From NCBI RefSeq assembly GCF_009914755.1, contig NC_060947.1: 64,000 nucleotides of DNA. One strand, 5' to 3'. The notes below the pieces were generated by a model. The model was not told the origin of the DNA, made no database searches, and saw only the letters and a program-made list of their open reading frames with translations. Below are positions 6,931 through 25,548 of the stretch, piece after piece (the stretch's first letter is position 1; the number at the start of each line of letters is the position of its first letter). This DNA is from the human T2T-CHM13v2.0 reference genome, Homo sapiens. Both the position numbers and the translations under genes were made by a program.

Positions 6931-7939
6931 GGTAAAAGAGATGAGGGAAGGGCCATGCTACCAGCCTTCACTACAGGGCTAAGTTTGGTAGAGCCAGGTA
7001 GCTTCCTATCTAAGCAAGGCCTTTTGTTTCCTGAGCAACTTTCAGAAGAGCACAGTGTTGACTGAGCAGAATAAAGCCCATCCTTAGATAGTGAAATTTT
7101 TAAAAAGTATCCTTTGATAATTAGCAACAGTATACACATAGATGAGCTAAGCAATATTTTCTTTGATGCGAACAGTCCTTCTTGAAGTACAAGAAGGCAA
7201 CACAGATGTTCATTCGGCTTCTTATGTGTTCAGATACTGTGGAAACAGAATTCCCAGTTCCTCAAACAAAACATTTCATTCATACCTGTCCATACTTGCA
7301 TGTGCCTCCTGTGTCATGCCTCTCTGCCTGTGGTACTCTGGAATCTTTGTCTTCTATTCACTTCTCAAGATTGCACACCAGCATAAATTCCTAGGTGAAG
7401 ACTTCCTAGAACACAGGTCCACACGATGAAAAAGTCACTACAGAGGCTATGTAAATACTCCAAGTTCCAAAGACAAAGGGATTTCCAGTACTTCCTCAAG
7501 GCCATCTCTCATAGCTTAGATTTCCTGTCCACACCCTGGAACCTAAAGCCTAGGCTCCTCTCAGTTTACTCACACTCTTTGCCCCTGAAGGCATTTTCCT
7601 TGTCACCAAGCACCTACTACAATTGAAGAGGGTACAGTCAGTCCCAAGCAGCCCTACCAGGTTTCTCTTACCTCCTCACCATGGATGCCTGGTATCCCTT
7701 CCTCATCAGCATTCTCTGATGCTGACACTGGATCCCATCCAAGAGCCATACACTGTGCTGGTACATCACAATGCCAACCACCCTTTTTACATACTCTTAA
7801 AACAACCACCACCAGATTCCCCCAGCTCTTCTTCCCCCAAGGCCACAAAAATCTGCAGACTCCATGCATCCCAATAGTGATTTTCAGAGACTGTGACTTC
7901 TGTTGCCCTTGAAGAATCCTAATTAGGGGAATTGCCTGG

Positions 7940-8160
7940 CCGAAGTTATGCTTTAGAATGATTACTGAAGCCATAGTGAGAGATCTTGAAGGCTTGAAAT
8001 AGGTAGGGATAGAGAAGAGAGGACAGACTGGAGAAAGGTATGATATCTGTGTTCCCATCAATGGATTTGAGTAACTGACAAGATGTGTGAAGTGGGAAAG
8101 AGAATAGAAGTGTTAAAATGATCAAGCTTGCTTGCTTGATAATTTGGATAGGTGGTAATA
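7940..8160 (-). mobile_element. L2 fragment
   Basis: Purine-rich L2 antisense pattern 'gtgagagatcttgaaggcttgaaataggtagggatagagaagagaggacagactggag'. Confidence 0.5.
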
Positions 8161-8169
8161 CAATAGAGA

Positions 8170-8574
8170 TATCTTAGTCAATTTGTACTGCTATAACAAA
8201 ATACCTAAGACTGGGTAGTTTATAAAGAAGAGAAATTTTATTTCTTCACAGTTCTGGAGGCTGGAAGTCCAAGACCAAGACACCAGCAGGTTCAGTTGTC
8301 TGGTGAGCACGTGTTATCTGCTTCCAAGATAATGCCTTGTTGCTGCTTCCCTAGGAGGGATGAATGCTGTGTCCTTACATGCTAGATAGAACAAAATGGC
8401 AAAAACGGCTTAACAAGTTCCCTCCAGCCTTTTATAAGGCACTAACCCCATGTTTAAGGGCAGAGCCCTCATGGCCTAGTCACCTCCTAAAGGGTCCACC
8501 TTTTAATACTGTTGCACTGGGGATTAGGTTTCAACATGAATTTTGAAGGAGACACAAACATGCAAACCATGGCA
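8170..8574 (-). mobile_element. MaLR solo LTR (MSTD/MLT1A-like)
   Basis: Begins 'tatcttagtc...ctgctataacaaaatacctaagactgggtagtttataaag', contains 'cacagttctggaggctggaagtccaaga', ends 'acacaaacatgcaaaccatggca'. Confidence 0.85.
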
Positions 8575-8584
8575 GATGCAAAAG

Positions 8585-8980
8585 TAAAGCAGAGGAATTA
8601 ACTTCTGACACATTCTACAACATGGATTACACTCAAAAACATTATGCTAAGTGAAATATAATATGCTAAAAGCCACATATTATATGAGTCCCTTCATAAG
8701 AAATATCTAGAATAGGCAAATCAATAGAGACAGAAAGCAGATTAGAGGTTGCCCAGGGATGGAGGGTGGAGGGGATAGAGGGATTGGGAGAATGATAGCT
8801 AAAAGTTACAGGGTTTCATTCTGGAGTGGTGAAAATGTTCCTGAACTAGATCATGGTGATGGCTGGACAACACTGCAAAGATACTAAAAAGCACAGAATA
8901 GTCCATTTTAAAAGATAAATGTTATATGTATTTTATTACAAAATAAGTAGATAGATTAAAAATAAAACAAAATAAATGAA
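8585..8980 (+). mobile_element. L1M (L1MB/MC-like) 3' end
   Basis: 'acaacatggat...cattatgctaagtgaaa...aataggcaaatcaatagagacagaaagcagattagaggttgcc...ggtgaaaatgttcctgaactagat' followed by an A-rich tail. Confidence 0.85.
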
Positions 8981-9205
8981 GGAATGCATACATACATACA
9001 TACTTAAACCAGTAGGAGGGACATGCCAGAGATGGTGAGCTCAGTTTTAGCTTTCTTAGGCTTGAGGCATTTGTGGAACATTGTGGTGGAACTGGATTTA
9101 GGTGCCAGGAGCTCAAAAGAGCGTTATAGCTGTCAGGGCTGTAAATACATTGCCTCAGCCCACCCATTTTGGAGAGCTGGGAAGGTAGGAACTGGGGCAA
9201 AGCCC

Positions 9206-9599
9206 TGTATTAGTTTCCTGGAGCTGCTATAACAGAGTACCACAAGTTGGAAGGCTTAAAGCAACAGGAATGTCCTGTCTTCCTAACTTCCAGATGTTAG
9301 AAGTCCAATAACAAGGAGTTGGTTCCTTCTTAGGATGTAAGAGAAGGATCTGTTCCAGGCCTCCCTCCTTGGCTTGTAGACATCTGTCTTCTCTCTCCCT
9401 GAGTCTCTTCACATACTCATCCTTCTATGGGTGACCGTATGCAAATTGCCCCTTTTTATAAGGACACCAGTCATATCGGATTAGGGATCACCGTAAGGAC
9501 CTCAAGACCTTATCTCCAAATAAGACCACATTCTGAAATACTGGGGGTTAGGGCTTCAACGTATGAGTTTTAGGTAGGAACGCAATTCACCCCCTAACA
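9206..9599 (-). mobile_element. MaLR solo LTR (MLT1B/C-like) with intact 5-bp TSD
   Basis: TG...CA termini ('tgtattagtttcctggagctgctataac' ... 'cccctaaca') flanked by AGCCC at 9201-9205 and 9600-9604. Confidence 0.9.
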
Positions 9600-10802
9600 A
9601 GCCCATTTCCTGAATTTCCCTTTTCTGAATGGCAGCAATTTTAACGATCCTCCAGTTGCAGTAGTAATCAGCTGCACAGTTCTGTCCCATCCTACGTAGA
9701 GGGAATTTAGGGGTACTTACCCCCAAAACCACTCTGGAGCTTCCGTCCATTCTTCTGCAATCTCTCAGAATAACATGGACTTAGGGAGCTGACTAAGAGT
9801 CATCTGCCTGCAGTCATTTTCAAATAACATTGTTATTGCAATTACCAAGTTGAGAAAAGCCTGCCCAACCACTACTTGGGCAATTGATAAGGTAATGAAA
9901 AAAACAAACAGATTTACTTTTTTATGTGAAGACAAAATGTTTGTAGGAAGCAGCTCTCACATTCTTTGTAAGCAGCTCTGCTCTGTGGATTTTCTCAGCA
10001 TCTTTGACCAAGCCTGGCTTGTGACCATCTTGTTTTCCTATGGTAGTTCATTCTCTGTTTCTGTGGTGGGACACTGTGCCAAGAGAACTCGCTCAAGACC
10101 AAGAGACAGATCAGGCTGTTGTTCCACATTTTCTTTCCACTAAATCACAGTTTTCTTTCAAGGGAAGGTGGCTGTTGTGAAGCTGTCAAACTAGCTGTTA
10201 AATGGGTTGAAGTGAAGGCTCCTATTAACAACAGCAGCTATCTCTGTCACATTCAAGTTCTGCAGACAGTTACAAGGCAATTTGGTCCTGATAGGTGGGC
10301 TATTAAAAATAACAAAAGGCAAGAAGAATGAGAGAGGAACACCCTTTTTACTTCCTGGTTTCAAAACTAAGGGGGCAACTGAATATTTCACACATGGACC
10401 TAGCCTGCAGTTAGTGTGGCCTTCATAATCTCACAGGGACAAGGCATCCTCCCTCCCTGGGTGTTTTCCTTTAGCCAGGTCTGGGAATGGAAGGTGGCAG
10501 TGGGGGAGACAGCAACAAGGTCTCTATCAAGTTCAAGGTGGCCAAAGAGTTCTGAATGCTGATCATAATTGGAAACAGTGTCACTGGTGAGGGCAGTATG
10601 TGTGCTGTGTGTGTGTGGTTGTGGGGAGCGGGTGGGGGGCAGTGATGATGCCCTCTGCATGAGAAAAAGCAGTGTGGACAGTTTTACAGTGTCATATCCA
10701 AGACTGTGAAGGTTAGACGACAGACAACCGGAAGAGAATTAAAGGGAAATTATCTCTCAGCTTAAGGGAGCCCCAACTTAAATTGGATTTGTGAGTTAAC
10801 AT

Positions 10803-11312
10803 TTGCCTTACTGTGGGAGTTACATACCCGTACAGGGCCCTGATAGGAGCCTGGATACCTAACCCCTCGTGTCATGGTTTGGAAAATCAATTAGCCAGTG
10901 AAGGACCCGGCCTTGCGTAGACTCAGCAGAGGAGAAACTGCTGCAACCCAGGCAGTCTGCACCTCTGACCAGCAAGAATGGACACATTTTTCTTCTGTTG
11001 AAATAGATTCAGAGTCCCATTTTGCCTGTGCTTAATGAATTCATATATAACATGATCCTTACCCCAGCTTCTTCTGTAATCACTAAAATGTGAGCCTCCT
11101 TCCATCAGCCCTCACATCGTATTAGAGCAACTCATCCAAATTGGCAGCCCACATTAACCACATGCCTGCCTGTGGGTTTTATTGCGAATGGGGGCAGGTG
11201 ATTTGTACTGTTGCGAGGAACATTGCACAGACAGATTCCTTCTTTACTACCCTCAGGTTTGGAAATTCCAAAGTCAGGGAGGAGGAGAAGAGTCTTTGCC
11301 CACAGGATCTTG
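10803..11312 (+). repeat. Donor segment of a local permuted duplication
   Basis: 10803-11016 matches 12772-13001 and 11105-11312 matches 12567-12774; near-identical ORF translations at 11141 and 12603 confirm the copy. Confidence 0.95.
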
Positions 11313-11564
11313 GCTTGGTCTCCACCCCATCCAGACAGCTGTCTCTTTAATATAATGCTTTGTCTCTCCTGGAAAAGACAAAGCTCTTTTCCCTTGGTGA
11401 GGCTTCTGCTGGTCATATCAATTGCAGTTTTAATGTAGGGAAAAAATACAGTGAGAAAGAGATTAGGCAGGAAAAAATAGCTCTTTTTCTCTGTGTTTTT
11501 CTTGGCAGATATGTCTAGGAATGCATTGGAGACCTTCTGCCGTACTTCGTTATGCAGGACAGTA

Positions 11565-11653
11565 AGCAGAGTGGTTAGGGACATGGGCTTTGGAATCAGG
11601 CCACTGTGGATTGCCAGACCAGCTCTCCGTTCTTCTCTTGTCCAGCTGTGAGA
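11565..11653 (+). mobile_element. MIR 5' half (split by L1)
   Basis: 'gcagagtggttagggacatgggctttggaatcagg...cagctgtgagact'; the MIR resumes at ~13125. Confidence 0.7.
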
Positions 11654-12176
11654 CTTTTTTTTTTAAAAAAGACGGCTCTATTTAGATGCATATAACATAA
11701 AACTTACCATTGTAAAGTATACAATTCAGTGTTTTCTAGTATATTCACAGAGTTGTGAAACCATCACCACTGTCTAATTCTAGAATATTTTTATCACCCC
11801 GAAAGAATCTTCATAACATTAGCAGTCACTCCCCTTGCCCCATCCCCCCAAGCCCTGGCAACCAGTCTCTTTCAGTCTCTACAGATTTGCCTGTTTTAGA
11901 CATTTCATATGAAAGGAATCATGTGATATGTGGCCTTTGGTGACTGGTTTATTGCACTTGGCATAATATTTTCAAGGCTTATTCATGTTGTACCATGTGT
12001 CAGTACTTTCTTCCTTTTTGTAGCTGAATAATCATTCATTTCATGGATCTATCACATCATGTTTATCCATTCCATCAGTTCATTGACATTTGTGCTGTTT
12101 CTACTTTATGTCTATTCCGCGATGGTTAATGATGTTGAGCATCTTTTCATCTGCTTATTGGCCATTTGTCTTTCTG

Positions 12177-12532
12177 TGTCTGTCAGTCTGGGCTGCTATA
12201 ACAAGAATCCCATAGGCTGGGTGGCTTAAACAACAAACACTTGTTTCTCACGTAAGTGGTGGTTGGGAAGTCCATGATCAGGATGCCAGTATGGTTGGGT
12301 TCTCGTAAAAACCCTCATCCTGATATCCTCACATGGTAGAAAGAGAATGAAAGGAAGCAAGGTCTCTTGGGTCTCTTCTTAGAAGGTCTCTAATCCCATC
12401 ATGAGTATTCAACCGTTATGACCCAGTCACCTCCCAAAGACTCCACCTCCTAATATCATCACATTGTGGATTAGAGTTTCAACTCTATATGACTTTGAGG
12501 GAGGGGGACACACAAACATTCAGTCCACAGTG
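12177..12532 (-). mobile_element. MaLR solo LTR (MLT1A-like) inserted in L1
   Basis: 'ggctgctataacaagaatcccataggctgggtggcttaaacaacaaacac...gggacacacaaacattcagtccacag'. Confidence 0.85.
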
Positions 12533-12566
12533 GTATCTTCTGTGGAAAAATGTCTATTCAGATCCT

Positions 12567-13001
12567 TCAGCCCTCACATCGTATTAGAGCAACTCATCTA
12601 AATTGGCAGCCCACATTAACCACATGCCTGCCTTCGGGTTTTATTGGGAATGGGGACAGGTGATTTATACTGTTGAGAGGGACATTGCACAGAGAGATTC
12701 CTTCTTTACTACCCTCAGGTTTGGAAATTCCAAAGTCAGGGAGGAGGAGAAGAGTCTTTGCCCACAGGATCTTGCCTTACTGCAGGAGTTACACACCAGT
12801 ACAGGGCCCTGATAGGAGCCCGGCTATCTAACCTCTCGTGTCATGGTTTGGAAAATCAATTAGCCAGTGAAGGACTGGGCCTTGCATAGACTCAGCAGAG
12901 GAGAAACTGCTGCAACCCAGGCAGTCTGCAATCCAGGCAGTGTGCACCTCTGATCAGCAAGAATGGACACCTTTTTCTTCTGTTGAAATAGACTCAGACT
13001 C
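12567..13001 (+). repeat. Circularly permuted ~435-bp copy of 10803-11312 inserted in L1
   Basis: Order B'(12567-12774) then A'(12772-13001); about 24 substitutions over ~420 aligned bp by eye plus a 16-bp internal tandem duplication ('atccaggcagtgtgca'). Confidence 0.95.
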
Positions 13002-13124
13002 TTTAATTGGGTTACTTATCATTTTATTGCTGAGTTTCCAGGGTTCCTTATAAATTCTGGATACTAGATCCTTATCAGATATATGACCCACAGATATTTT
13101 CTCCCATTCTGTGTGTTTTCTTCT

Positions 13125-13285
13125 TAACTTTTTTAAACCTGAATTTCCTCACTTGAACAGAGAAAATACCAGTATAACCTCCCAAATTTCATGGAAAGAG
13201 TCAATGAAGTGATCCATTAGCGCACTTAGAGAAATGAATGTCTGGCACACATTAAGCTTACCTCAATAAGTCTTAGTTATTATTA
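13125..13285 (+). mobile_element. MIR 3' half
   Basis: 'aaacctgaatttcctcacttg...gcacttagag...tggcacac...ctcaataagtcttagttattatta'. Confidence 0.7.
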
Positions 13286-13884
13286 GCTAGTATTGGCTGA
13301 CTTGGATTTATTGTGAGACAGAGACAAGGTGTAAGCCCTCAAGTCATAATTGTACATCTGACAGGTGTGATGTGAAAGGTTCAAAGTGCTTTGATTGAAC
13401 TAACATGTTATTCCTAGGATGATTGGAGCAATTTTATTTGAGGGACTACATTTTTATTCTGAATAGATTTCCTAGTTCTAGATATTAAATACTAAGTCTT
13501 GGCCAGTATTGGGGTCTGCTATTCTCCACGTATCTATATTTACAGTTCTTTCTGATTCTATCTAGACAGCTAGTTACCTATCTATCAAGAAGGTGAGTCT
13601 ATGAATAATAGGATAGAAATAGCCAAGTTCTGGGGCAAGTACTCAGAATTGGCACCCTCTTACCTGAAGCCAAATCAGGAAAGAGTAGAGCTCCAATTTC
13701 ACAAGATGTTCATCCACTATATGTAAAACCTACTCTCATGTCTCTCTGTTGTTGCTTAAACTGCTTTCTTCAACCAGAGACCTGGTGATTTCCTCTACAG
13801 TGATTCTTTTAAGGCTGCTTCTAAATACATTGATATAAGAACCAGGCTCCAGTTTGCCTTAATATCAGTAATAGTGGAAGCAGT

Positions 13885-14095
13885 GGCATTTATCAAGTGC
13901 TCACGACGAACTCTTTTCACATATTATTTCAGCTAATCTTTGCAACAACCGTCCAAAGTTGTTATAACTAGCCTTGTTTTAGAGACGAAAAAAAAAATGG
14001 CGACTCAGAGAGGTCAATTAGTTTGCCCAGATTTGTACACTTGGTAAATGCAAGAGCACAGGCTGGACCTGTAGTCTATTCAGCTCCCAACCCTT
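13885..14095 (-). mobile_element. MIR
   Basis: 'gcatttatcaagtgctcac...aatctttgcaacaacc...actcagagaggtcaattagtttgcccag'. Confidence 0.75.
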
Positions 14096-15169
14096 TGCTA
14101 TTTCCTTTACACATTGTTACCCCTAAGGAAATTGAATTACAGAGCCCTTGATTGTTAGACAACTGAGTTATCTCCGTGTTTCAGAATTAGAAAGCCAATC
14201 CTGTCTAATTCATTAGTATATGGTAATACAGAACAGTTTAGATAAGTGTGTCATTTGTTGACAGTGGCCCTCCCTTTTCTTGAGAATCCTCCTCTCCGGT
14301 TCAGTTTTTCTTTATGAGTCAGTGGCAGTGCTAAGATGATGGCCTTACATGTGTTCAGCAGGGTCACAGGAATAAGAAAGACTCATGGTATATTGGTGAG
14401 CTACAGAGAATTCATTTGCCGCAAGTTGAAATTTGGAGAGAGATGGCCAAAATGACTCAACATGGTTGGCTTTCCACATCAATGTAATTGTGCCATGTGC
14501 TATAATTTATAGTGTAAACAAGTTTCCTGCAAAAGCTAAATATATCATGCAACTCATTTAACATGCACAGAAGGAGCCATTAAATTATTTCAGTCCCGTT
14601 ACTCAAAATGTTCAGAAAATTCCTCTGTATTAGAGCCAGTGCAGGATTGGTTCTGCAGCCAAGTGCATCAACATAAATGTTGAATTCTCAGAAGGAAATG
14701 CATGCCTCATACTGTTACTTAGGGAAAATATATGCCCAGACATTGTGGAGCCCCTTCTAAAACAATCCTCATTTTGTTAAAACAATACTATCAAATTTTC
14801 AATCAGGTTATAAAGCATCTCTGCATTTATAAAGCTTGCAGACAATTGTGAATATCAATAAAAAGGTGATGTGTTTTTAAAAGATTAATAATTTATGAAC
14901 CATGGAAATGGAAACTGAGGCTTTTTATGTCATTTTCTAATTTTGTCTACCTACGTGGAGAGAATGCCTTGTGGAAGCCATATGTGATGCCTTAAAACTG
15001 TTTAAATTGGAGTAATTATCAGAACAAATGGTGTCATTGGATGATATTAGTCTGTTTGTGTTCCTTCTGTCTACCCAATGAATCAACATTAATACATATT
15101 TTTAAAAACATTTGAAACATGGTCATCTGTGGTTTCTTTTTTGTTTTAAAGTATATGTTTAAAAATTGA

Positions 15170-15440
15170 TCTAACCTTCCATACATACTAAAATATACCT
15201 TAGATTGAGAGTTTGCAGTTACATATTCCTTATGCAAAAAGGGAGTATCCTTCTCTACTTAGCTGTTAAAGAGTTTGGGTGAGGGATGGATATAAAATTT
15301 TGTCAAGTATATTTTTGGCCTCTATTGAGGTGATCATCTGGTTTTCATCATTTTATTTGTTGATGATGTGCTTTGTTCTACAAATAGACATTTCATTATC
15401 AAAATGTTTCAGCACTCCTGGAATGATACTAGATTAATAT
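15170..15440 (-). mobile_element. Old L1M ORF2 fragment
   Basis: 'ggatggatataaaattttgtcaagtatatttttggcctctattgaggtgatcatctggttttc' matches the antisense L1 ORF2 pattern. Confidence 0.6.
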
Positions 15441-17879
15441 TTGATGATATATAGTTCAGTTGCATTTTAGGTAGATTTGAATTTTCAAGATTTGAAAAAG
15501 TTGATATAGTAATATTAAAAAGGTTCTCATTATTAAAAACATGATCTACTTCTGTTTCTGGCATGCAAAAGCTATTTGTGGCAAATATACAGTTATTTTC
15601 CTTCTTTCGATTTTTACTTTAACATGAGAACACATTTCTCTAGTTTGCCTTGTTTCCAAATAAAATGACATCTGATGTGTCAGGATAATTCAAGCTCAAC
15701 TATCTTGAGCCAATAATCACAGATGATAAAGATTGGGTGATTCCTACGTGCTAGGGGTTTGAAGTGAGATATTGCATTTAATAGTTATAGCAATTCTATA
15801 AGACACTCAGAAGTTCAAGGGATTTGATCTGAGGTGACACAGATAGTCAGAGTTTGAACTTGGGTCTATCTGACTGCAGTGCAAGCTCTATTGCTACACT
15901 GAGCTTTTCAGTGCACTCAGTAGCCACACACAAGTCAATTAGCTTTGCAAAATGGAAAGTTACTGGTCTCTGAGGACTCTGAATATTGGCTAGTTCTTAT
16001 GGATGTGTGTGCCCTTGGACCCAACATGTTACATGATGAGCTCTGGCTAGCTTAGCATGCATGCATCACCCCAGCAGAGAAACAAGTCCATTCGCTATTG
16101 TTCTGTTTATGGTAATGATACTACCAGCCTTTGTTAGAATTTAAATGTGGACAGCACATTCACAATGAGACCTTAGTAAATGAGAGTTATGTTCAGCAGG
16201 TCACCAGGATATGAAACTCAGGTCTTGTAAGGAGTAGTTATCAACTTACAGGGATGTCTGGTGGTGTAGGGGAGCACTTTTACCATGGCACCCTGGAGAA
16301 CCTGCAGGTATCCAAATAGGCCACATAAGCAGAGGCTTGAACCACAGCTAATCTGAGCCTTGGTGGAACATCCATTGATCCTCCCAGAACAAGAGAGGAC
16401 AAGAAGATTGTGAGATGTACTTTAAGGCCATCTCCCACTCACTTCCCTATCTCCTTTGGAATGCTATCATGAGACAGTTTCCCATCACCTCCCAGGTTCT
16501 GTTGAGGAGTTTTCTGTCCTGCCCTCCACTGAATAGAACTCTAGCCTATACAACTGCTAAGCCAAAGTCTAAAATTGACTCCTCAGCTACAGTGTGTCCT
16601 ATAACTTGGTCTGCAGTCATCTGGCCTCTTTTGGTTGGTATCCTCCTTTTTGGTGTGTGGGACAAGAGTCGGGGGTCAGCTGGCACCTTTGGCAATTCTT
16701 CTTTTATTTTATTTCAAGCCTAGTTTAGTAAGTACTAAACTATCTGTATCTAAAAGTGGACCTGCATCTTTATTGGTTGAATTAGCCAGGCCTTGGCCTT
16801 GACCTTGCCCTGTCTTCTATGTGTGTGTTAACAGGAGGTACTCATACTCATCTGCTGGAATGCTCACAGGGGTCCTGGGCTACATGTGCCCAAGAAGGTC
16901 TATCCAGCTCTACAGAGTTAAAATACTGTCAATATGGGTTAGAAAGCAATCTACCTCTTCCCCTAAACCAGAGTGTGGAGAGTGATTTTGATGCAGCCAA
17001 AAGAGCTGAGCATACAAATCAGGTGGGATTTTTATAAATAACTGAGCAACAATGCTGTCAACATTTTAGTTGGGCCTACATTGTCAGTCCTGAATGTTTT
17101 GCTAAAATAATCTGAAATAAAATGTGAATTCTTTATGCATCAGCATAAGGGAAATCCTATTTCCTGTGTCAATTCAGGTAGACAGGCCTTCTTGACAACC
17201 TTTCTCTGGAAATGGGTTTGAGAAATGGTTTAAAGCACTCCAAGCTAAAGTGTTCTGTTATCAGCAGCTGAAAATTTGCCATGCATCACATAGGACTAAG
17301 AATTGGTCCTTGCCCCCATTGAGTTTAATGTAAGACACAATGGCTGTCAGCAGGTATGAGTTGTAGTGCACTTAACAGCGACTTAGTATTTCAGTTGTTT
17401 TGGACAGCTTCCTTAGATAGATATTAATGGACCAACTCCATAAAGGAGTTATTTCCTTAATCATTTGACAATTAGGAGCTGACGTGAAGAGATGAGTAAT
17501 GAAGTACCCTCTGTGATTGTACTTTGGAGGTAGCCACAGGGGTTTCTTATATCTAATCTGCTGTAGTTGCTCTAAGAAGCTGAAGGGAGACTGAGAGGGG
17601 CAATTCCAAAAGGAATTCTGCCTTTCCTCATCACTTGAGAATGGAAGCTAACCAGTGACTGGGTTTGTCTCCAAAGAGAATGCTGAGTACTAGAGACACT
17701 CTTCTGCCTGATAGAGAAAGTCCTCACTTGGCATCTGAGCCTTATCAAAATGAAGAGACATTTGATAGACAGGCAGCCTAGTGTGAGGGAAGGCTTTGAT
17801 GTCTGGTGGAATTCCTGATTTAAATTCAGTGTTCTTAGACAACCTTGAATGTTAGGATCATCAGTGTCCAAATTCAGTT

Positions 17880-25428: not shown

Positions 25429-25548
<120 letters not shown>

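What the first reader, a model, noticed from the sequence alone, without database searches (positions are those of the whole stretch)
10803..13001. Circularly permuted local duplication: signature of a reintegrated ~507-bp DNA circle
Seen: unique sequence A (10803-11016) ... B (11105-11312) is copied ~1.3 kb downstream in the same orientation but in order B-A (12567-12774, 12772-13001). The B/A junction joins the END of the donor to its START, where the donor ends share TTGCCTT (10803-10809) / TTGGCTT (11310-11316). The middle 88 bp (11017-11104) are missing. The copy interrupts an L1 at 'tcagatcct|...|tttaattggg', replacing roughly 10 L1 bases, with no poly-A or TSD and short microhomology at the left join (tcc[a/t]tcagcc). 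Established: small extrachromosomal circles (microDNA) are a few hundred bp and often bounded by short microhomologies, and permuted order is the hallmark of circular-intermediate insertions. Inference: a 507-bp circle was opened and resected in its middle and captured at a nearby germline break. A two-step template switch (MMBIR or Pol-theta templated insertion) is the alternative. About 6% divergence by eye implies an old primate event.
Basis: partly seen in the sequence, partly recalled or inferred. Interest (0 to 1): 0.8.

Follow-up and report, generated by a model that had tools for sequence, protein, structure and literature searches.

The report
Permuted local duplicate inside an old L1
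A unique stretch of about 510 bases in an AFF2 intron was copied once, long ago, into a nearby L1 remnant with its two halves in swapped order, a known signature of a DNA-circle or template-jumping repair event with no sign of function.

Summary
Donor blocks A (10803-11016) and B (11101-11316) recur 1.25 kb downstream, on the same strand, in order B-A (12563-12778, 12772-13001). 24 of 415 aligned bases differ (5.8%). The middle 88 bp are absent from the copy. A whole-genome search finds the sequence nowhere else, so it is not a repeat family.

The copy sits in an old L1. L1 relatives show the two flanks are about 14 nt apart in intact copies, so about 10 L1 bases were lost. There is no target-site duplication, poly-A or splice signal. 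The B|A join uses 3 nt of exact microhomology (6 of 7 imperfect). The L1|B join uses 3-4 nt. The A|L1 join shows none.

It is therefore one break-repair event. The template was either a ~507-bp circle (my estimate 0.48) or the linear chromosome read through three template switches (0.33). The sequence alone cannot separate these.

The AB-to-BA signature is already in print: for large segmental duplications, for cattle KIT, and, in a 2026 preprint, for 82 small polymorphic human insertions that are likewise nearby and co-oriented. This locus is an old, fixed, sub-kb member of a known kind. Dating needs primate orthologues, which were not available here.

The parts
10803..11016 (+). Donor block A (214 nt), unique sequence in an AFF2 intron
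   Evidence: The genome search finds only this place and its copy.
11017..11104 (+). Donor middle segment (88 nt, 39% G+C), absent from the copy. It corresponds to the two ends of the inserted piece.
   Evidence: The DNA fold is weak, -3.8 kcal/mol, with no notable hairpin.
11101..11316 (+). Donor block B (216 nt by the repeat finder). The first 4 nt (TCCA) overlap the L1|B microhomology, so B proper starts at 11105.
10803..10809 (+). Left 7-nt imperfect direct repeat (TTGCCTT) at the start of the donor interval. Its partner TTGGCTT lies at 11310-11316.
   Evidence: One search shows the sequence. 3 nt are exact and 6 of 7 match.
11310..11316 (+). Right 7-nt imperfect direct repeat (TTGGCTT) at the end of the donor interval
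11686..12169 (+). Upstream part of the host L1 remnant
   Evidence: 11686-12114 matches other L1-like pieces of the window. 12127-12169 matches L1 relatives just upstream of the insertion site.
12170..12533 (.). Another interspersed repeat nested in the same L1 (family not determined). Its limits are approximate.
   Evidence: L1 colinearity is interrupted here. There is a partial second copy at 8471-8564.
12534..12566 (+). 33 nt of L1 directly left of the insert. The last 4 nt (TCCT) overlap the start of the copy.
12563..12778 (+). Copy of block B (9 mismatches in 208 aligned)
12772..13001 (+). Copy of block A (15 mismatches in 207 aligned, plus 16 extra nt). The B|A junction lies at 12772-12778.
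12910..12941 (+). 16-nt tandem duplication that exists only in the copy. In the donor the single unit is followed by a repeat of its own first 5 nt. The two units differ at 1 of 16 positions.
   Evidence: (pair D3).
13002..13134 (+). L1 directly right of the insert
   Evidence: 40 scored matches of 1389 candidates in the genome, at 77-82% identity.

Best explanation
One germline break-repair event filled a double-strand break in an old L1 remnant with a circularly permuted copy of a unique segment lying 1.25 kb upstream on the same chromosome. I date it roughly to the stem of the catarrhine primates.

The most likely template was a small extrachromosomal circle of about 507 bp. The circle would have formed from a sister-chromatid copy of 10803-11316, closed by joining its two ends at the TTG / TTG(C/G)CTT microhomology.

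Two routes from circle to insert are possible. In the first, the circle was opened inside the 88-bp middle segment, trimmed and end-joined into the break. In the second, it served as a template that was copied for 0.83 of a turn.

The repair deleted about 10 L1 bases and used 3-4 nt of microhomology on the left side. The insert has since drifted as neutral intronic DNA.

Shown by the data: the permuted order, the uniqueness of the sequence, the insertion into L1 with a small target deletion, and the junction microhomologies. Inferred: the circle itself, the germline timing and the age.
For: 1. Blocks that are colinear in the donor are swapped but co-oriented in the copy.
2. The two ends of the insert map only 88 bp apart in the donor. 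The insert is therefore one source interval, cut once, covering 423 of 507 nt. A circle predicts this. Independent template jumps give it only by coincidence.
3. The B|A join links the two outer ends of the interval at 3 nt of exact microhomology and 6 of 7 imperfect. Random junctions in this window reach those levels in 6.1% and 1.0% of 200,000 trials.
4. The sequence occurs nowhere else in the 3.1-Gb assembly: 2 candidates in the first look, both local.
5. The flanks are colinear L1. By my reading, 12 of 29 fetched L1 relatives give a match of the left flank ending about 14 nt before the start of the right-flank match. About 10 L1 bases are therefore missing.
6. No further partial copies of A, B or the middle segment lie within +/-4 kb. 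This removes the tandem-duplication false positive described by Takahashi and Innan.
7. Feasibility comes from a 2026 preprint. It reports reporter eccDNA integrating into the mouse germline, and 82 AB-to-BA insertions among 327 source-resolved polymorphic human insertions.
Against: No circle can be observed in a genome sequence.

A free circle joined into a break should land in either orientation and anywhere in the genome. This copy is co-oriented and 1.25 kb from its source, as a local replicative template switch predicts. In the preprint's own set, 79 of 80 intrachromosomal events are co-oriented and 80 of 82 are intrachromosomal. That fits a freely diffusing circle poorly.

The two copied tracts are almost equal in length (214 and 216 nt). 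A randomly opened circle does not predict this.

The copy carries a 16-nt slippage duplication whose units have already diverged (1 of 16). This would fit error-prone copying at the time of the event.

The right junction shows no microhomology.

Source coverage is 83%, below the 95% the preprint requires for its class.
Confidence: 0.48

Rival explanations
1. Serial template switching on the linear chromosome (MMBIR / FoSTeS / multi-invasion SDSA), with no circle. A 3' end at a stalled fork or break in the L1 (about 12566) re-primed 1.47 kb back at 11101 and copied about 216 nt. It then jumped a further 0.5 kb back to 10803 at the TTG microhomology and copied about 214 nt. Finally it returned to the L1 about 10 nt beyond its starting point.
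For: All templates lie within 1.8 kb on the same strand and the copy is co-oriented. Microhomology is present at 2 of 3 joins. The two tracts are nearly equal, 214 and 216 nt. A slippage-type 16-nt duplication of apparently similar age lies inside the copied tract. The published AB-to-BA class shows an extreme same-orientation and same-chromosome bias. MMBIR is named as the alternative by Holt et al. and appears among the keywords of Chicote et al..
Against: Three switches are needed. The second tract must also stop, by coincidence, within 88 bp upstream of where the first tract began, which I estimate at roughly 10-20% (inference, not computed). No other templated snippets or inverted pieces lie within +/-4 kb. 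The right junction shows no microhomology.
Confidence: 0.33
2. A transient tandem duplication of the donor (A-m-B-A-m-B, formed at the 7-nt repeats). A single colinear stretch spanning its B|A junction was then copied into the L1. The donor later collapsed back to one unit by unequal exchange.
For: The 7-nt imperfect direct repeats are the kind of sequence that seeds tandem duplication. Takahashi and Innan describe this as the typical false positive for circle signatures.
Against: It needs three events. The donor shows no remnant of a second unit, and there are no extra A or B fragments near the donor or the copy.
Confidence: 0.1
3. Two independent insertions of A and of B that landed next to each other in the L1.
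For: Divergence differs between the blocks: A has 15 mismatches in 207 aligned and B has 9 in 208. I ran no significance test on this difference.
Against: The B|A join falls exactly at the outer ends of one donor interval, and those ends share a 6-of-7 match (1.0% of random junctions). Two hits at the same base of the same L1 from the same 514-bp source are very unlikely.
Confidence: 0.03
4. An RNA-mediated copy: a retrocopy of a circular or back-spliced RNA, or another L1-driven retrotransposition.
For: The donor lies in a transcribed intron of AFF2 on the + strand (hub annotation). Back-splicing gives permuted order.
Against: I examined nine junction registers. None has GT after the end of B together with AG before the start of A, and none has the reverse-strand equivalents. 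There is no poly-A and no target-site duplication; there is a target deletion instead.
Confidence: 0.02
5. The segment belongs to a multi-copy repeat family whose consensus already has B-A order, or the structure is an assembly artefact.
For: None found.
Against: Only the donor and the copy match in the whole assembly, whichever of the two is used as query. Neither is in NCBI's masked list (hub note). A divergence of 5.8% excludes a collapsed or duplicated assembly error. One caveat applies: the genome search skips very common words and scores only the best candidates.
Confidence: 0.01

Closest known systems
AB-to-BA 'eccDNA-mediated' polymorphic insertions in human long-read data (Zhang ... 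Chen, bioRxiv 10.64898/2026.09.03.749254). I read the abstract and sections 7, 9, 10 and 29.
   Same: The source is unique. The block order is a cyclic shift. The source span is under 5 kb, on the same chromosome, in the same orientation and close to the insert. Microhomology is involved.
   Different: This event is fixed and about 6% diverged, not polymorphic. It covers only 83% of the source interval, against their filter of >=95%. It lies inside a transposable-element remnant.
eccDNA-mediated segmental duplications in the human reference (Takahashi and Innan 2020, PMC7188851, parts 1-2 of the text read; Chicote et al. 2020, PMC7450558, abstract and outline only).
   Same: The same dot-plot signature: two parallel lines, A-B becoming B-A. 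Breakpoints carry only microhomology or short indels. The events are germline and fixed.
   Different: Those screens start from segmental duplications longer than 1 kb. Takahashi and Innan kept 3 strong circle candidates. At about 0.43 kb this insert is below their size threshold.
Serial translocation of the cattle KIT locus through circular intermediates (Durkin et al. 2012). I saw it only as described in Holt et al..
   Same: Permuted order is taken as the mark of a circular intermediate in a mammalian germline.
   Different: It involves hundreds of kilobases, moves between chromosomes and has a coat-colour phenotype.
MMBIR / FoSTeS templated insertions at breakpoints. The papers appeared in the search listing only; the mechanism is as described in Holt et al..
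   Same: Nearby templates, microhomology at joins, several switches in one event and small copying errors.
   Different: A product that amounts to one source interval cut once is not a stated hallmark of this mechanism.
microDNA (Shibata et al. 2012; recalled, not read here)
   Same: A sub-kilobase circle bounded by short direct repeats. The source is richer in G+C than its surroundings: 47% against 39% for the window.
   Different: 507 bp exceeds the usual 200-400 bp (recalled). The origin is intronic, not a CpG island or 5' UTR. No circle has been observed.

Membership tests
Circle-type (AB-to-BA) duplicative insertion | Two blocks that are colinear in the source appear in swapped order with the same orientation | tested here: met
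Circle-type (AB-to-BA) duplicative insertion | The source is unique and is not a tandem duplication or a repeat family | tested here: met
   Only the donor and the copy are found in the assembly. They are 1.25 kb apart with L1 on both sides of the copy.
Circle-type (AB-to-BA) duplicative insertion | The internal junction joins the two outer ends of one source interval | tested here: met
   11312/11316 is joined to 10803/10806 with 3 nt exact and 6 of 7 imperfect microhomology.
Circle-type (AB-to-BA) duplicative insertion | No extra flanking copy of either block (the false-positive filter of Takahashi and Innan) | tested here: met
   A sensitive self-comparison of 7000-17000 finds no further pieces.
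Circle-type (AB-to-BA) duplicative insertion | At least 95% coverage of the source interval (the criterion of the 2026 preprint) | tested here: not met
   423 of 507 nt, or 83%. The 88-bp middle segment is missing.
Circle-type (AB-to-BA) duplicative insertion | A circular DNA molecule was the physical intermediate | not testable with these tools
   Only the product is visible.
MMBIR / FoSTeS serial template switching | Microhomology at every junction | tested here: inconclusive
   L1|B has 3 nt (4 of 5 imperfect) and B|A has 3 nt (6 of 7). A|L1 shows none in today's sequence. The pre-insertion L1 sequence is unknown; only 6 of 29 relatives keep the possible 8-nt match.
MMBIR / FoSTeS serial template switching | Templates lie close to the break on the same chromosome | tested here: met
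   The jumps are about 1.47 kb and 0.51 kb.
microDNA | Size of 200-400 bp and origin in G+C-rich genic starts (recalled definition) | tested here: not met
   The inferred circle is 507 bp, intronic and 47% G+C.
Retrotransposition or circRNA-derived retrocopy | Poly-A tail, target-site duplication, or canonical splice dinucleotides at the permuted junction | tested here: not met
Interspersed repeat family | Many dispersed copies in the genome | tested here: not met
   By contrast the L1 flank gave 1389 candidates.

The most novel reading that the evidence does not exclude
This is a fossil, roughly 25-40 million years old, of germline re-insertion of a sub-kilobase extrachromosomal circle. It would be smaller than anything the >1-kb segmental-duplication screens could see, and far older than the polymorphic cases in the 2026 preprint. 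Small circles would then have been seeding dispersed duplications in primate genomes throughout their history. A bolder variant draws on the co-orientation, the kilobase proximity and the two near-equal tracts of about 215 nt. On that reading the whole 'eccDNA insertion' class is made by a local replicative double back-jump, without free circles.
Probability: 0.45. Interest if true: 0.45.

Novelty: new member of a known kind. Interest (0 to 1): 0.3.

Why it matters
The locus is a clean, datable example of a permuted duplicative insertion. The source is unique. The empty site can be defined because the host is an L1. All three junctions are readable. It lies below the size range of earlier reference-genome screens.

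It could serve as a test case in the open question of circle re-insertion versus template switching, once primate orthologues give the empty site and the state at birth.

There is no sign of biological function. It is intronic in AFF2, more than 12 kb from the nearest exon in the window. No RNA family matches it, and no annotated element overlaps it.

Tried and rejected
1. Repeat family or artefact. Two whole-assembly searches, one with the donor and one with the copy, found only these places.

2. Eroded tandem array. No extra fragments lie within +/-4 kb, and L1 abuts both sides of the copy.

3. circRNA or retrotransposition origin. No splice dinucleotides appear in nine junction registers, and there is no poly-A or target-site duplication.

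4. Structured RNA. Rfam at gathering thresholds over 10000-14000 gave 0 matches.

5. A hairpin or cruciform in the 88-bp middle segment that might explain where a circle opened. The DNA fold is only -3.8 kcal/mol.

6. An 8-nt match between the donor bases just after A (11016-11023) and the L1 bases lost at the target. It is present at the site in only 6 of 29 diverged L1 relatives. It would also need a later 4-6 nt deletion to fit the product. I kept it as a lead, not as evidence.

7. Other permuted pairs in the window. There are none.

9. Primate orthologues. No primate genome is held by the tools, so the empty site and the age were not tested.

10. The preprint's Table S2 (sizes and distances of the 82 events) could not be read, because bioRxiv supplements are closed.

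11. A genome-wide census of such events was not attempted. The assembly is served only in short stretches, and I did not tile it.

Full report
**What is there**

- Donor block B (11101-11316) recurs at 12563-12778 (216 nt, 95%).
- Donor block A (10803-11016) recurs at 12772-13001. The repeat finder splits it into two pairs (159 nt at 93%, 76 nt at 92%), because the copy carries a 16-nt tandem duplication at 12910-12941.
- The order in the copy is B then A, on the same strand.
- The 88 bp between A and B in the donor (11017-11104) are absent from the copy.
- Over 415 aligned columns there are 24 mismatches: 15 transitions and 9 transversions, of which 3 are transitions at sites that are still CpG. 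This gives p = 5.8% and K2P = 6.0%. By block, A has 15 mismatches in 207 and B has 9 in 208.

**Is it more than chance, and is it a repeat family?**

- A self-comparison of the whole window gives only 5 plus-strand off-diagonal matches at E <= 1e-10.
- These two are the only ones at >=85% identity and >=80 nt, and they form the only permuted pair.
- Searches of the window's own 3.1-Gb assembly, with the donor and with the copy (E up to 10), returned only the donor and the two pieces of the copy. The first look found 2 candidates each time.
- The tool warns that it skips very common words. Even so, the neighbouring L1 flank gave 1389 candidates under the same search, so a repeat family would have been seen.
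- A divergence of 5.8% rules out an assembly artefact.

**The recipient site**

- I fetched 29 relatives (L005-L033) of the right flank 13002-13140, at 77-82% identity.
- By my reading, 12 of the 29 also give a match of the 48-nt left flank directly upstream. That match ends about 14 nt before the start of the right-flank match.
- 12127-12169 maps just before that point again.
- The structure is thus one L1 remnant in + orientation (about 11686-13134) carrying two insertions. One is an unrelated interspersed repeat at about 12170-12533. The other, 33 nt further on, is the B-A piece.
- Alignment of the site and the site strings show that about 14 L1 bases normally lie between window positions 12562 and 13002. 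Four of them survive on the left (TCCT), so about 10 were lost.
- There is a target deletion, no target-site duplication and no poly-A.
- This fixes the direction of the event. The L1-embedded B-A is the derived copy and the colinear A-m-B is the source.

**The junctions**

- B|A: the end of B (...TCTTG|GCTT) meets the start of A (...TTTG|CCTT). Three nt are exact, and 6 of 7 match in the TTG(C/G)CTT repeat that bounds the donor interval. Among 200,000 random junctions 300-700 nt apart in this window, 6.1% have >=3 nt exact and 1.0% have >=6 of 7.
- L1|B: TCC is shared, with 4 of 5 matching over TCCNT.
- A|L1: nothing is shared in today's sequence.
- One curiosity: the donor's next 8 nt after A (11016-11023) equal the L1 bases lost at the target in 6 of 29 relatives (7-mer in 8, 6-mer in 12). 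The product would then need a later 4-6 nt deletion, so I do not rely on it.
- None of nine registers around the B|A junction has GT...AG or its reverse-strand equivalent. A back-spliced RNA is therefore not the source.

**Mechanism**

The product needs three new joins, made in one event.

The circle reading:
- The interval 10803-11316 is closed on itself at the TTG microhomology, giving about 507 bp.
- The circle is then opened in the middle segment and either end-joined into a break in the L1 or copied for 0.83 of a turn.
- This explains why the two ends of the insert lie only 88 bp apart in the source, so that the insert is one interval cut once (423 of 507 nt).

The template-switch reading:
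- The strand jumps back 1.47 kb and copies 216 nt. It jumps back another 0.51 kb and copies 214 nt. It then returns to the L1.
- This explains the same orientation and the kilobase proximity, which a freely diffusing circle does not predict.
- It also fits the near-equal tract lengths.
- It fits the 16-nt slippage duplication, in which the single donor unit is followed by a repeat of its own first 5 nt. The two units already differ at 1 of 16 positions, about what 5.8% divergence predicts for a duplication as old as the insert. That last point is an inference.

No further templated snippets lie within +/-4 kb.

I weigh the circle at 0.48 and linear template switching at 0.33. A transient tandem duplication of the donor gets 0.10; this is the false-positive route spelled out by Takahashi and Innan. 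The remaining readings share 0.06.

**Age**

This is inference only. K2P of 0.060 between the paralogues means about 0.030 per copy. With recalled catarrhine rates of about 0.8-1.2e-9 per site per year, this suggests 25-38 million years, near or after the split of catarrhines from New World monkeys. No primate genome was available to test this. Gene conversion between the close copies would make the event look younger than it is.

**Comparison with what is known**

- The swapped-order signature is established for large events. Cattle KIT is one case (as described in Holt et al.). Human segmental duplications are another: Chicote et al. 2020 (abstract), and Takahashi and Innan 2020, who kept 3 strong candidates among duplications longer than 1 kb.
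- A September 2026 preprint extends it to small polymorphic insertions. It reports 82 AB-to-BA events among 327 source-resolved insertions. Of these, 80 of 82 are intrachromosomal and 79 of 80 are co-oriented. Terminal microhomology of >=5 bp is seen in 23 of 82, against 10 of 245 controls.
- The sections of that preprint I read (7, 9, 10, 29) do not discuss template switching as an alternative. Holt et al. do.
- Searches for small fixed cases listed nothing beyond these papers. I read only the listings of the others.
- This locus is thus a fixed, old, sub-kilobase member of a known kind. It would fail the preprint's 95% source-coverage filter.

**Function**

- None is indicated.
- The site is intronic in AFF2. 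The nearest exon in the window is at 25440 (hub annotation).
- No Rfam family matches.
- Neither the donor nor the copy appears in the annotated functional elements listed by the hub.

Noticed in passing
window 12910-12941: A 16-nt tandem duplication present only in the copy. In the donor the single unit is followed by a repeat of its own first 5 nt, a slippage context. The two units differ at 1 of 16 positions, so the duplication is old and possibly as old as the insertion.
   Followed up: partly
window 12170-12533 (and 8471-8564): A second, unrelated interspersed repeat is nested in the same L1 only 33 nt upstream of the B-A insert. A partial relative lies at 8471-8564 (72% over about 105 nt). 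The family was not determined.
   Followed up: partly
window 11016-11023 versus the L1 target site: The 8 donor bases that follow block A are identical to the L1 bases lost at the insertion site in 6 of 29 L1 relatives. This would be an in-register microhomology if this L1 carried them, but the product would then need a later 4-6 nt deletion.
   Followed up: partly
window 10803-11016 and 11101-11316: The two copied tracts are almost the same length (214 and 216 nt), so the B|A junction sits in the middle of the insert. Neither model explains this fully.
   Followed up: no
window 10814-10815 versus 12783-12784: The adjacent double difference TG (donor) versus CA (copy) is the pattern expected if an ancestral CpG decayed on opposite strands in the two copies. 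The count of 3 CpG transitions therefore understates CpG decay.
   Followed up: no
window 10598-10650: A short (TG)n run followed by a G-rich stretch lies about 150-200 nt upstream of the donor interval.
   Followed up: no
window 8593-8931: An inverted L1-like fragment is related to 11686-12015 (71-77% identity).
   Followed up: no
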